From a virus, in the IMG/VR virus record IMGVR_UViG_3300032277_000009, positions 1 through 46,914 of that record: a DNA stretch of 46,914 nt. The stretch is one strand, 5' to 3'. Shown in pieces: positions 1-46,914 of the stretch; positions within the stretch are counted from its first letter, which is position 1, and the number at the start of each line of letters is the position of its first letter. The position numbers and the translations under genes were made by a program. The notes below the pieces were generated by a model. It was given only the letters and a program-made list of their open reading frames with translations, was not told the origin of the DNA and did no database searches.

Positions 1-127
1 CAAACCCAGACACGGACTCAGAAGGCTTGATGCAATGACCAACCAACTCCCCGCCAGTGGCGCAACGCCAGCCCAGCAGATCAACAACCTCGCGAAGCAG
101 GTGACGCGCCTGACCGAGAAGCTCGCA
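1..127. repeat. Terminal overlap copy 1, identical to 46788..46914. Marks a circular or circularly permuted assembly. Bases 1..38 duplicate the 3' end of terS.
   Basis: All 127 nt compared by eye with the last 127 nt and found identical. The repeat cuts through coding sequence. Confidence 0.95.
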
Positions 128-6599: not shown

Positions 6600-6824
6600 A
6601 TGAAACGCGCCCTGTTTCTGTGCGGCCTGTTGGCCGCGTCTTCTTGCACACCGCCCGCCGTCTACACGAAGGCGGACCGTGCAACCTTCGACTCGATCGC
6701 ACCTGAGTATCGCGACTACGTGCTCGGCGACGCGTCGCTCTCCCAGCCCGCTCGGGATCTGCGTTTGCTGAACGTCGAGACGTGGCGCAAGCGTCTCGAA
6801 GCCGCAGAGAAGGTGGTGAAGTGA
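6600..6824 (+). CDS. Small lipoprotein (o-spanin-like candidate)
   Basis: 74 aa. Signal peptide plus lipobox MKRALFLCGLLAASS|C, with a mature part of about 58 aa. Lies directly after the charged TM protein. Confidence 0.65.
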   Translation: MKRALFLCGLLAASSCTPPAVYTKADRATFDSIAPEYRDYVLGDASLSQPARDLRLLNVETWRKRLEAAEKVVK

Positions 6825-7525
6825 TGGTCCAGTTAAAGCAGTGGAAGAGCCACAAGATCATCAGAGCTGCACGCATCGTGTTGGTTTCGTCCGACGAAGA
6901 CTCGGTCGTGTTGATGCTCGACCCGGAGCATGCGACGAGCGACGACGGCACGAGACCGTTCGTCACGGTGCCGAAGACTTGGCCGCCGTTCTTGAACAAC
7001 AAGGTGCTCGTTGGCGGCTACTTCATCCTCTACAGCGACGGCTACGAATCGTGGTCGCCAGCCAAGCCGTTCGAGGAAGGCTACACCGAGGTTGCAGCCG
7101 AAGATGCTCCGGTAGCAGCGCCCGCGCACCCTTGGCGCGAACTCACCGGGCACCAAGTCAACCCCGCCAACGATCGGTTGAAGATCGAAGTTCTCGACGG
7201 GCCGGGCGCAGGTGGCGCGTGCCATCTCTACCACATCACGGGCTTCGACTCAGACACCAACGCGTCTGACCTTTGGAAAGCCCGACACGGCAAACCCGCG
7301 AAGCACTCGACGGTGCTGTTTCAGAACGGCCCGATCAACGAGGTCGGTGTCAACGGCGTCACGCACGAGGCGCTGCTCGCGATCATCATCGACCGGCTCG
7401 AAGGCTTCCAGAAGGGGCCGTTCGCGTGCCCCGAGAACGAGATCGCACTCAACGCGTTTTGGCTGGCGCAACGCGTTTTGGCTGGCGCAACGCACTCTCC
7501 ACCTACGGACCAAGCTGCGCGATGA
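6824..7525 (+). CDS. Two-domain conserved phage protein whose C-terminus is altered by a 19-bp tandem duplication. The inferred ancestral ORF is 6824..7556 minus 19 bp.
   Basis: ATGA overlap with the lipoprotein gene. N-terminal domain WKSHKIIRAARI...GGYFILYSDGYESWSPAKPFEEGY. C-terminal domain GPGAGGACHLYHI...VLFQNGPINEVGVNGVTHEALLAIIIDRLEGFQKGPFACPENEIALNAFWLAQR. The reading frame then leaves the conserved frame. Confidence 0.7.
   Translation: MVQLKQWKSHKIIRAARIVLVSSDEDSVVLMLDPEHATSDDGTRPFVTVPKTWPPFLNNKVLVGGYFILYSDGYESWSPAKPFEEGYTEVAAEDAPVAAPAHPWRELTGHQVNPANDRLKIEVLDGPGAGGACHLYHITGFDSDTNASDLWKARHGKPAKHSTVLFQNGPINEVGVNGVTHEALLAIIIDRLEGFQKGPFACPENEIALNAFWLAQRVLAGATHSPPTDQAAR
7451..7488 (+). 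repeat. Perfect 19-bp tandem duplication (aacgcgttttggctggcgc x2, plus a partial third aacgc)
   Basis: Read directly: 7451-7469 equals 7470-7488. The period is not a multiple of 3. Confidence 0.95.
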
Positions 7526-7552
7526 GCGCGGCGTCGAAGGAACGCACGAGAA

Positions 7553-7819
7553 ATGACAACTCCCGAACTCAAGCAACTCGTCGCCGACATCGAAGCGTCG
7601 ATCACCGATCCCGAACTCAAGCTGATCGCGACCACGCTCGCGACGCAGGTTGTGCGCGTTGCGGCGATCGCGGCGACGGACCCGCAGACCGCTGAGCGCG
7701 AGATGGCGCACGTGAAGTCGGCCACAACCAACCTCACGGCCGCCAGTCTGGCGACGGTCGAGGCCAAGATCCTCGACTACTTCGGCGCCGTTGTCCGCTC
7801 GGCCCTTGGCCTGGCGTGA
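7553..7819 (+). CDS. Hypothetical helical protein (88 aa)
   Basis: Its ATG at 7553 forms ATGA with the stop of the duplication-corrected upstream frame (7554-7556). Ala/Thr-rich helical sequence. Confidence 0.55.
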   Translation: MTTPELKQLVADIEASITDPELKLIATTLATQVVRVAAIAATDPQTAEREMAHVKSATTNLTAASLATVEAKILDYFGAVVRSALGLA

Positions 7820-36323: not shown

Positions 36324-36852
36324 CAGTAATCTCCTTCACGCCCTTGCTCCAATTCTCGTGAGCCCACAACGGGCGCAGGTTGGTGTAGTGCCAGCACTCC
36401 GGGTCAGCCGGGTCGTCAAAGCTGGCGACGGGTCGGATGTGGTCGATGTGCCATTCGCTGCGGTTGCCCCAGGTCATGCCCGGCTTGAACTGCGCTTCGA
36501 TCCAAGCACGCAGACCTTCGCGATCTGTGCCGGCGAGCGCCACCACGGAGCACGGCTTGGCGCGGCCGTTGATAGCTCGATAGAAGCGCGTGCGGAGCGC
36601 CCTCACAAGGTTAGGGGTCGGCTTGGCGTGGTAGCGCCGATTGGTTTCGCGCACTTTCTCGCGGTTCGCTTCGTAGTAGCGCCGCCTGTATTCGCGCAGT
36701 TTCTCGCGATTCGCTTCGCGGTAGCGTTGCTGAGCCTCTCGCACTTTCTCCGGGTTCGCTTCGCGGTAGCGTCGCTGAGCCTCTCGCACTTTCTCCGGGT
36801 TCGCTTCACGCCAACGGCGCTGGCGTTCGTGCGGGTTGTTTTCATCGATCAT
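36313..36852 (-). CDS. HNH (His-Me finger) endonuclease with an N-terminal 15-aa repeat array
   Basis: EWHIDHIRPVASF...NLRPLWAHENWSKG. Four REAN(P/R)EK(V/L)RE...RRY repeats. ATGA coupling at 36849-36852. Confidence 0.8.
   Translation of the reverse strand: MIDENNPHERQRRWREANPEKVREAQRRYREANPEKVREAQQRYREANREKLREYRRRYYEANREKVRETNRRYHAKPTPNLVRALRTRFYRAINGRAKPCSVVALAGTDREGLRAWIEAQFKPGMTWGNRSEWHIDHIRPVASFDDPADPECWHYTNLRPLWAHENWSKGVKEITDAR
36631..36810 (-). repeat. 4 x 45-bp in-frame tandem repeats inside the HNH gene (the two copies at 36721-36810 are nearly identical)
   Basis: cctctcgcactttctccgggttcgcttc recurs at 36735 and 36780. Encodes EANPEKVREAQ(R/Q)RYR. Confidence 0.85.
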
Positions 36853-46296: not shown

Positions 46297-46825
46297 GAAG
46301 CGCGTAACCAAGAAGGTCGCGTCGCCATCGAAGCACAAGGCGACAAAGCCCCGCAGCGAGTGGCCGATCAGGCCCGACGAGAAGCTCACTGAGTCGTTGA
46401 GCGGTCTGCTCGGCAGCAGCAAGCTCAAGTTCGACCCGAAGGAATGGAAGCCCGTCGTTATCGCGTGGCTCGACTCAGGGCAGATGCTGTCGAAGATGCT
46501 GCGCATGCCGAACACGCCGTCACGGCGCCTGGTCGACATGTGGCGAGCAGACGACGAAGAGTTCGCAAACGACTACCACGCCGCAACCAGCGCGCTCTAC
46601 GACACGCTCGCCGACCAAGTCATCGAGATCGCCGACGGCGAGCCCGAACTCGTGAAGCTGTTCACGGAGATTCGCTACCAGATTGACGCGCGCATCCGCA
46701 TGTTGTCACGTTGGACGCACCGATACGCCGAGAAGCGGCAGGTCGAGCAGACCGGCAATGGCACTGTTCAGATCATCACCGGTGTTCCAAACCCAGACAC
46801 GGACTCAGAAGGCTTGATGCAATGA
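46289..46825 (+). CDS. terS: Terminase small subunit
   Basis: 178 aa with a basic N-terminus. SGQMLSKMLRMPNTPSRRLVDMWRADDEEFANDYHAATSALYDTLADQVIEIAD...IRYQIDARIRMLSRW follows the HTH plus oligomerisation-helix pattern of small terminases. Lies upstream of terL across the junction. Confidence 0.75.
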   Translation: MPRKRVTKKVASPSKHKATKPRSEWPIRPDEKLTESLSGLLGSSKLKFDPKEWKPVVIAWLDSGQMLSKMLRMPNTPSRRLVDMWRADDEEFANDYHAATSALYDTLADQVIEIADGEPELVKLFTEIRYQIDARIRMLSRWTHRYAEKRQVEQTGNGTVQIITGVPNPDTDSEGLMQ

Positions 46826-46914
46826 CCAACCAACTCCCCGCCAGTGGCGCAACGCCAGCCCAGCAGATCAACAACCTCGCGAAGCAGGTGACGCGCCTGA
46901 CCGAGAAGCTCGCA
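46788..46914. repeat. Terminal overlap copy 2, identical to 1..127
   Basis: Exact 127-nt identity with the window start. Confidence 0.95.

What the first reader, a model, noticed from the sequence alone, without database searches (positions are those of the whole stretch)
6824..7556. A perfect 19-bp tandem duplication frameshifts a conserved gene; deleting one copy restores an ORF that ends in an ATGA overlap with the next gene
Positions 7451-7469 and 7470-7488 are identical (aacgcgttttggctggcgc), followed by a partial third copy (aacgc).

- **As it stands.** The gene reads ...NAFWLAQR then VLAGATHSPPTDQAAR* and ends at 7525.
- **With one copy removed.** It reads ...NAFWLAQRTLHLRTKLRDERGVEGTHEK*. 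The stop is then at 7554-7556, overlapping the ATG (7553) of the downstream gene in the same ATGA coupling used throughout this genome. That strongly suggests the single-copy form is ancestral.

The duplication could be a real inactivating or phase-variable slipped-strand event, a population variant, or an assembly or consensus artefact.
Basis: seen in the sequence. Interest (0 to 1): 0.62.

Follow-up and report, generated by a model that had tools for sequence, protein, structure and literature searches.

The report
Frameshifted Tad1 anti-defence gene in phage
A fresh 19-base tandem duplication breaks the end of a phage gene whose product belongs to the Tad1 family, proteins that soak up bacterial immune alarm molecules; it is an ordinary kind of mutation, in a gene that phages are known to gain and lose during the arms race with their hosts.

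Summary
Positions 7451-7469 and 7470-7488 are identical and are followed by AACGC. This is the longest perfect tandem repeat in the window and far beyond chance.

- All 32 aligned homologues end in xLxxRTxxRxxxG(V/T)EGTHxx, which is the ending of the one-copy reading. None shares VLAGATHSPPTDQAAR.
- Three PHROG profiles score 13.7-25.5 bits higher on the one-copy reading.
- A syntenic relative (capsid protein 86% identical) shows a gap of exactly 19 bases at this site.

The gene is a two-domain anti-defence protein in a complete 46.9-kb BPP-1-like uncultured phage genome. It has an uncharacterised N-terminal beta-barrel and a Tad1-family (Thoeris anti-defence 1) sponge domain.

The frameshift removes the last 20 residues. 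These include the equivalents of CbTad1 R109, R113, G120 and N122 and the ligand lid. In CbTad1, R109A/R113A severely reduces gcADPR and 2',3'-cGAMP binding. The sponge pocket is therefore probably dead.

The 6-bp CAACGC microhomology points to replication slippage.

A side lead: the N-terminal domain recurs fused to Tad1, Tad2, Acb4 and Sequestin.

The parts
6824..7525 (+). ORF as it stands (233 aa): N-terminal beta-barrel domain, Ala/Pro-rich linker, then a Tad1-family domain with a frameshifted 16-aa tail
   Evidence: Searches give the ORF and its translation. Searches give phmmer matches to PDB Tad1 chains. One search gives Foldseek matches to 7uaw/8kbf/7uav at E about 4e-6.
6824..7120 (+). 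N-terminal domain of about 95 aa (HKIIRAARI...GGYFILYSDGYESWSPAKPFEEGY). It is a small beta-barrel with no Pfam model and is fused elsewhere to other sponge families.
   Evidence: AF2 pLDDT is about 92-96. There is no significant PDB fold match. The domain has 2380 representative relatives.
7136..7474 (+). The part of the Tad1 domain that is still in frame (aa 105-217): the beta-sheet, helix alpha1 and the first half of helix alpha2. It retains the equivalents of CbTad1 H29, G55, R78, F82, F87 and N92.
   Evidence: Alignment to 7uav_A. Residue roles come from the preprint read.
7450..7493 (+). Perfect tandem duplication: copy 1 at 7451-7469, copy 2 at 7470-7488, partial copy at 7489-7493, bounded by 6-bp CAACGC microhomology
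7475..7525 (+). Out-of-frame tail VLAGATHSPPTDQAAR and premature stop TGA at 7523-7525
   Evidence: No homologue shares this tail.
7494..7556 (+). Displaced but undecayed coding remnant of the conserved C-terminus (TLHLRTKLRDERGVEGTHEK*). It carries the equivalents of CbTad1 R109, R113, G120 and N122 and the lid. Its stop at 7554-7556 overlaps the next ATG.
7553..7819 (+). Downstream 88-aa gene. It is 51% identical to the 88-aa gene at the same position in the relative L084. AAGGA at 7537-7541 is a possible ribosome-binding site of its own.
6600..6824 (+). Upstream 74-aa gene whose TGA overlaps the ATG of the Tad1 fusion gene (TGATG)

Best explanation
The gene at 6824-7556 encodes a two-domain phage anti-defence protein. 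It has an uncharacterised N-terminal beta-barrel and a C-terminal Tad1-family sponge domain. Tad1 proteins sequester TIR-made gcADPR and cyclic dinucleotides, the alarm signals of the Thoeris and CBASS defence systems.

In this genome a very recent slippage event between two 6-bp CAACGC repeats spaced 19 bp apart duplicated 19 bp inside helix alpha2. The reading frame shifts after R217 and the protein ends 16 residues later. The last 20 residues are lost. They hold the second half of alpha2, two arginines that clamp the ligand's diphosphate and adenine, and the C-terminal lid that closes the pocket. The predicted result is a protein with an intact N-terminal domain and a Tad1 domain that can no longer hold its ligand: a fresh loss-of-function allele.

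Shown here: the duplication, the family assignment, the ancestral single-copy state, and which residues are lost. Inferred: the slippage mechanism, the loss of binding, and that the allele is real rather than a consensus error.
For: Repeat and frames.

Family assignment:
- phmmer against PDB gives PhiKZ gp184 (8y6v) E 1.6e-20, CmTad1 (8kbb) 2.4e-13 and CbTad1 (7uav) 4.2e-9.
- Foldseek of the AF2 model (pLDDT 86.5) places 20 Tad1 chains on top at E 4e-6 to 1e-4.
- The precomputed Pfam hit is PF24729, named Acb2_Tad1_hairpin.

Ancestral state: profile scores; 32 of 32 homologue C-termini; exact 19-nt gap in a relative whose capsid protein is 86% identical.

Residues lost:
- The alignment maps R222, R226, G233 and H235 of the one-copy reading to CbTad1 R109, R113, G120 and N122.
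- The Tad1 structure preprint names these as ligand contacts and residues 116-122 as the lid.
- R109A/R113A severely reduces gcADPR and 2',3'-cGAMP binding.

Recency: the two copies are identical. The displaced tail still encodes every conserved residue of the motif seen.

Real rather than assembly noise:
- The record ends in an exact 127-bp overlap. From my own knowledge this is typical of a k=127 de Bruijn assembly, in which a 44-bp tract lies inside single k-mers.
- ORFs of 992, 1089, 682 and 2204 aa are unbroken, so indel error is not general.
Against: No reads could be mapped, so the allele could be a minority variant or a consensus error. No second copy of this phage exists in the collections searched, so there is no independent sighting of either allele. 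Loss of binding is inferred from mutants of a 30%-identical homologue and was not measured. 92% of the protein, including the whole N-terminal domain, is still made and may keep a function.
Confidence: 0.7

Rival explanations
1. Assembly or consensus artefact. The phage population carries only the single-copy gene and the extra 19 bp arose during assembly or polishing.
For: There is a single record with no read support available. The protein cluster has one member on one contig.
Against: The shared sequence between copies is only 25 bp. The exact 127-bp terminal overlap suggests a k=127 graph, in which such a tract cannot form a loop; this rests on my own knowledge of assemblers. All large ORFs are intact, which argues against noisy long-read consensus. 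Perfect 19-bp duplications are not a usual sequencing error type.
Confidence: 0.12
2. Selected and possibly reversible switch-off. Loss of the Tad1 pocket was favoured because the host carries a decoy-signal system, such as Panoptes, that kills cells when a sponge removes its signal. A perfect tandem duplication can collapse back to one copy, so the sponge could be regained.
For: Of 15 T4 escapers of Panoptes, 14 had acb2 mutations, including frameshifting indels. CbTad1 and ColiTad1 co-expressed with OptSE reduced colony formation (review). The TadIV-1 paper proposes the same pressure for natural loss-of-function sponge variants. The mutation spares the N-terminal domain.
Against: The host is unknown, and no Panoptes or Thoeris context is available. 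One allele in one metagenome cannot show selection. Two copies of a 19-bp unit is not the architecture of classical contingency loci. Neutral decay in a host without Thoeris or CBASS fits equally well.
Confidence: 0.1
3. The truncated protein is still a working sponge or has a new function, so the duplication is a tolerated or adaptive C-terminal replacement.
For: Six of the seven ligand-contact residues upstream of the shift are kept. AF2 still models the Tad1 core with high confidence up to about residue 224.
Against: The four C-terminal contacts and the lid are lost. The CbTad1 R109A/R113A mutant alone severely reduces binding. The new tail is modelled as disordered, with pLDDT 41-64, and is found in no homologue. 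The shift falls where CmTad1 and CbTad1 have hexamer-interface residues.
Confidence: 0.05

Closest known systems
Tad1 (Thoeris anti-defence 1) sponges: CbTad1 (PDB 7UAV/7UAW/8SMD), CmTad1 (8KBB-8KBD)
   Same: Sequence and fold homology hold over the whole domain. The layout is a beta-sheet plus two long helices. In the one-copy reading, 9 of the 11 CbTad1 gcADPR-contact residues are identical.
   Different: This protein carries an extra N-terminal domain of about 100 aa. CbTad1 R57 is I and N122 is H. The trinucleotide-site residues R90 and T97 are P and N. As it stands, the gene lacks the last 20 residues.
Pseudomonas phage PhiKZ gp184 (Tad1; PDB 8Y6V chain I)
   Same: It is the best PDB sequence match (E 1.6e-20). 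It is also a protein of about 230 aa with an N-terminal extension ahead of the Tad1 domain. A PhiKZ transposon-mutagenesis preprint calls it Tad1, non-essential, with its N-terminus wedged in the capsid and its C-terminus cleaved and injected. The window gene also lies in the head-gene block.
   Different: The N-terminal parts show no detectable similarity; the alignment covers only gp184 residues 113-227. The phage types also differ: a jumbo myovirus against a 47-kb BPP-1-like phage. Packaging of the window protein is untested.
Loss-of-function sponge alleles selected by decoy-signal immunity (T4 acb2 escapers of Panoptes)
   Same: A frameshifting indel destroys the ligand pocket of a nucleotide sponge.
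   Different: Those were selected in the laboratory on a defined system and affect Acb2, not Tad1. Here the host and the selective agent are unknown.
Fused phage sponges (Acb4-Tad2 of Pasteurella phage Pm86; Sequestin fusions)
   Same: A multi-domain protein that joins a known sponge to another small domain. The N-terminal domain here is found fused to Tad1, Tad2 (PF11195), Acb4 (PF13876) and Sequestin (PF21825).
   Different: The partner domain here has no Pfam model and no assigned function. It does not match the published descriptions of Lockin or TadIV-1, and no solved structure of any sponge appeared among its fold matches.

Membership tests
Tad1 sponge family | Significant sequence similarity to experimentally characterised Tad1 proteins | tested here: met
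   phmmer against PDB gives PhiKZ gp184 1.6e-20, CmTad1 2.4e-13 and CbTad1 4.2e-9.
Tad1 sponge family | Fold: an N-terminal antiparallel beta-sheet followed by two long C-terminal helices | tested here: met
   The AF2 model has strands then helices H181-197 and H203-224. Foldseek places 20 Tad1 chains on top with probability 1.00. Helix alpha2 is cut short in the gene as it stands.
Tad1 sponge family | Conserved gcADPR/cyclic-dinucleotide pocket residues (CbTad1 H29, G55, R57, R78, F82, F87, N92, R109, R113, G120, N122) | tested here: not met
   As it stands the gene keeps only 6 of 11; R109, R113, G120 and N122 lie after the frameshift. In the one-copy reading 9 of 11 are identical (R57 is I, N122 is H).
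Tad1 sponge family | C-terminal lid (CbTad1 residues 116-122) that closes over the ligand | tested here: not met
   The lid is replaced by the out-of-frame tail VLAGATHSPPTDQAAR. It is still present, displaced, at 7494-7553.
Tad1 sponge family | Binding of gcADPR or cyclic nucleotides, and inhibition of Thoeris or CBASS | not testable with these tools
   This needs protein expression and binding or plaque assays.
Phase-variable contingency locus (slipped-strand repeat switch) | An in-ORF repeat tract whose unit is not a multiple of three | tested here: met
   The unit is 19 bp and lies inside the ORF.
Phase-variable contingency locus (slipped-strand repeat switch) | Copy-number variation between reads or isolates | not testable with these tools
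No second genome of this phage was found.
Phase-variable contingency locus (slipped-strand repeat switch) | A repeat tract conserved as a repeat in relatives | tested here: not met
   The relative L084/L085 has no repeat and not even the upstream CAACGC microhomology. Homologue proteins show a single NAxxLAQR-type segment.
PhiKZ gp184-type capsid-packaged Tad1 | An N-terminal domain homologous to the gp184 capsid-binding part | tested here: not met
   Alignments to 8y6v_I and phrog_22140 cover only the Tad1 half.
PhiKZ gp184-type capsid-packaged Tad1 | Presence in virions and cleavage by a head protease | not testable with these tools
   This needs virion proteomics.

The most novel reading that the evidence does not exclude
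The gene is a dual anti-defence fusion. Its N-terminal beta-barrel would be a new, still unnamed sponge or sponge-helper family, since it recurs fused to Tad1, Tad2, Acb4 and Sequestin. The 19-bp duplication would be a naturally selected and reversible switch that turns off only the Tad1 pocket, to escape a decoy-signal system such as Panoptes, while keeping the N-terminal function.
Probability: 0.08. Interest if true: 0.75.

Novelty: new member of a known kind. Interest (0 to 1): 0.38.

Why it matters
Sponge proteins such as Tad1 are central to how phages defeat signalling-based immunity (Thoeris, CBASS). Systems such as Panoptes punish phages for carrying them. A natural phage genome caught with a freshly broken Tad1 pocket is a small piece of field evidence that these genes turn over quickly. 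By itself it is one mutation in one metagenome assembly.

The more useful by-product is the N-terminal domain. It has no Pfam model and no solved structural relative. Yet it is repeatedly fused to four different known sponge families. The same kind of fusion evidence led to the discovery of Sequestin. The domain is therefore a concrete candidate for an untested anti-defence module.

Tried and rejected
- **A second genome of this phage.**
  - The flank pattern in viral contigs gave no hit.
  - The repeat unit in metagenome contigs gave no hit.
  - The exact-protein look-up found nothing on record.
  - Distant blastn against deposited phages gave only a 134-bp, 72%-identical hit in Burkholderia phage FLC9.
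  - The protein's 90% cluster has one member.
- **Pfam on the window protein.** Neither the protein as it stands nor the one-copy reading gave a hit in the local copy. The precomputed tables list PF24729, and a homologue hits it below the cut-off.
- **Function of the N-terminal domain by fold.** There was no PDB match at E <= 0.001. The best were OB-like barrels: lysyl-tRNA synthetase anticodon domains and the phage L decoration protein at TM 0.56. BFVD gave only uncharacterised phage proteins and one 'MazG' fusion.
- **Is the N-terminal domain Lockin or TadIV-1?** Rejected.
  - Lockin was reported absent from deposited phage genomes, whereas this domain is in several PHROGs and named phages.
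  - TadIV-1 is helical.
- **A shared VLAGATHSPPTDQAAR ending.** The one genome-contig hit whose tblastn match seemed to extend over the tail (L098) has the normal ...RMARGVEGRHKV ending.

Full report
**1. The observation**

The window reads caacgcgttttggctggcg caacgcgttttggctggcg caacgc at 7450-7493. Tandem Repeats Finder scores it as period 19, 2.3 copies, 100% identity. A run of 25 matches at lag 19 is the longest perfect tandem repeat in the window. Twenty shuffles never exceeded 13.

The ORF from ATG 6824 ends at TGA 7523-7525 with the tail VLAGATHSPPTDQAAR. Reading from the second copy gives NAFWLAQRTLHLRTKLRDERGVEGTHEK*, whose stop at 7554-7556 overlaps the ATG at 7553 of the next gene. 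ATGA and GTGA overlaps occur at eight or more other junctions.

**2. Where the window comes from**

The window is a complete IMG/VR virus record of 46,914 bp. It has 63% G+C and an exact 127-bp terminal repeat. It has a Bbp19-like protein and a GP7-type major capsid protein, so it is a BPP-1-like phage.

The gene lies between four small membrane-protein genes and the Bbp19/scaffold/capsid genes.

**3. What the gene is**

Pfam gave nothing directly. The other evidence assigns residues 105 onward to the Tad1 family:
- phmmer against PDB matched the C-terminal half to PhiKZ gp184 (8y6v, E 1.6e-20), CmTad1 (8kbb, 2.4e-13) and CbTad1 (7uav, 4.2e-9).
- An AlphaFold2 model built on 33 sequences (pLDDT 86.5) retrieved 20 Tad1 chains as the top Foldseek hits.

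Tad1 proteins sequester TIR-made gcADPR and also cyclic di- and trinucleotides. An earlier first-reader note (e1-3484538) had suggested testing this module as a nucleotide sponge, which these results bear out.

Residues 1 to about 95 form a confidently predicted small beta-barrel (pLDDT 92-96). It has no significant solved structural relative.

**4. The single-copy form is ancestral**

- phrog_2428 matches to profile position 112 of 131 at 68.0 bits on the gene as it stands. On the one-copy reading it matches to 131 of 131 at 93.5 bits. phrog_22140 and phrog_23843 behave the same way.
- In an alignment of 32 homologues, both two-domain and stand-alone, every sequence ends xLxxRTxxRxxxG(V/T)EGTHxx. 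The window's product departs from them exactly at the duplication. Two prophage copies checked by hand have the same ending.
- A syntenic relative was found in two Logan assemblies (L084, L085). It has the same gene order from terminase to adaptor and its capsid protein is 86% identical. Its DNA aligns through this region with a gap of exactly 19 columns.

**5. What is lost**

The alignment to CbTad1 maps the one-copy residues R222, R226, G233 and H235 to CbTad1 R109, R113, G120 and N122.
- The Tad1 structure preprint lists these among the 11 ligand contacts. It describes residues 116-122 as a lid that becomes ordered over gcADPR.
- R109A/R113A severely reduces binding of gcADPR and 2',3'-cGAMP.
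- The shift also falls where CmTad1 and CbTad1 carry hexamer-interface residues.
- Upstream of the shift, six of seven contact residues are identical (H, G, R, F, F, N; R57 is I).
- The trinucleotide-site residues R90 and T97 are P and N here. This clade may therefore rely on the gcADPR/dinucleotide pocket alone (inference).

I conclude that the Tad1 pocket is very probably non-functional in the two-copy allele, while the N-terminal domain is untouched.

**6. Mechanism and age**

The single-copy sequence would contain CAACGC twice, 19 bp apart. Slipped-strand mispairing between such microhomologies is the textbook route to a perfect tandem duplication (established knowledge). The copies are identical, and the displaced tail still encodes every conserved residue, so the event is very recent.

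The downstream gene keeps a possible AAGGA ribosome-binding site 11 nt before its ATG. Polar effects are therefore probably small (inference).

**7. Real or artefact**

Reads could not be consulted, and no second copy of this phage exists in the collections searched. Two points argue against an artefact:
- The 127-bp terminal overlap suggests a k=127 de Bruijn assembly, where a 44-bp tract lies inside single k-mers. This rests on my own knowledge of assemblers.
- ORFs of up to 2204 aa are unbroken.

I put an artefact at about 0.12. A mixed population remains possible.

**8. Why it might be lost**

Neutral loss in a host without Thoeris or CBASS is the simplest reading. A selected loss is also conceivable:
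- Panoptes-type systems kill when a sponge removes their decoy signal.
- T4 escapers carried frameshifts in acb2.
- CbTad1 and ColiTad1 were toxic when co-expressed with OptSE.
- The TadIV-1 paper makes the same argument for natural inactive variants.

Nothing here tests this.

**9. The N-terminal domain**

phmmer of residues 1-104 against 1.84 billion representatives gave 2380 hits at E <= 1e-3.

Among the best 150:
- Half are of stand-alone size (125 aa or less).
- In most longer proteins the domain is N-terminal: 52 cases against 5.
- The only Pfam partners with an assigned function are anti-defence families: Tad2-like (6 members), Acb2/Tad1 hairpin (5), PF13876 (3), PF21825 (3) and the T7 gp5.9 RecBCD inhibitor (1). 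The two other listed families, Ago_N_2 (3) and Tudor_5 (1), are small-domain matches; the one Ago_N_2 hit I located, in homologue P0003, falls inside this N-terminal domain.
- PF13876 is Acb4 and PF21825 is Sequestin. Sequestin was itself discovered through fusions to Tad2 and Acb4.
- Several PHROGs turn out to be such fusions.

In the relative L084, tad1 (136 aa) is a separate gene. It is followed by a 158-aa gene whose first 100 residues are 59% identical to the window's N-terminal domain. Both halves of the window gene resemble stand-alone versions more than the halves of other fused proteins:
- The Tad1 half is 65-77% identical to stand-alone Tad1 proteins, against 57-72% for the Tad1 halves of fused proteins.
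- The N-terminal half is 59% identical to the L084 gene, against 34-46% for the N-terminal halves of fused proteins.

This suggests recurrent, independent fusion (inference).

PhiKZ gp184 offers another analogy, an N-terminal capsid anchor that delivers Tad1. The N-terminal parts are not detectably related, however.

**10. Verdict**

This is a known kind of mutation in a new, two-domain member of the Tad1 family. Interest is moderate to low for the duplication itself. The N-terminal domain deserves its own follow-up.

Noticed in passing
window 6824-7120: The N-terminal domain of about 95 aa (HKxVxAAKI...GGYxVxYxDGYxSWSPAxAFEEGY) has no Pfam model and no significant PDB fold match. In other phages it is fused to Tad1, Tad2 (PF11195), Acb4 (PF13876), Sequestin (PF21825), a T7 gp5.9-like RecBCD inhibitor and a MazG-like protein. 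It is a candidate new sponge or sponge-accessory family.
   Followed up: partly
L084 5001-5887 (also L085): In a syntenic relative whose capsid protein is 86% identical, tad1 is a stand-alone 136-aa gene. It is followed by a 158-aa gene made of the same N-terminal domain plus a helical module (phrog_1761/5120). That helical module also sits in front of the N-domain-Tad1 fusion in homologue P0036. The three modules are therefore shuffled at this locus.
   Followed up: partly
window 1-127 and 46788-46914: The direct terminal repeat is exactly 127 bp.
   Followed up: no
window 7136-7556: The CbTad1 trinucleotide-site residues R90 and T97 are P and N in this protein (R90 also P in its closest stand-alone relatives), whereas many other homologues keep the Arg. 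This subclade may not bind cyclic trinucleotides.
   Followed up: partly
window 36647-36822: A 45-bp tandem array (3.6 copies, 85-89% identity; 45 bp is 15 codons) was reported by TRF and not examined.
   Followed up: no
window 7451-7458 and 7470-7477: Each repeat unit begins with the 8-bp palindrome AACGCGTT, which contains ACGCGT, so the duplication adds a second such site. Its significance is unknown.
   Followed up: no
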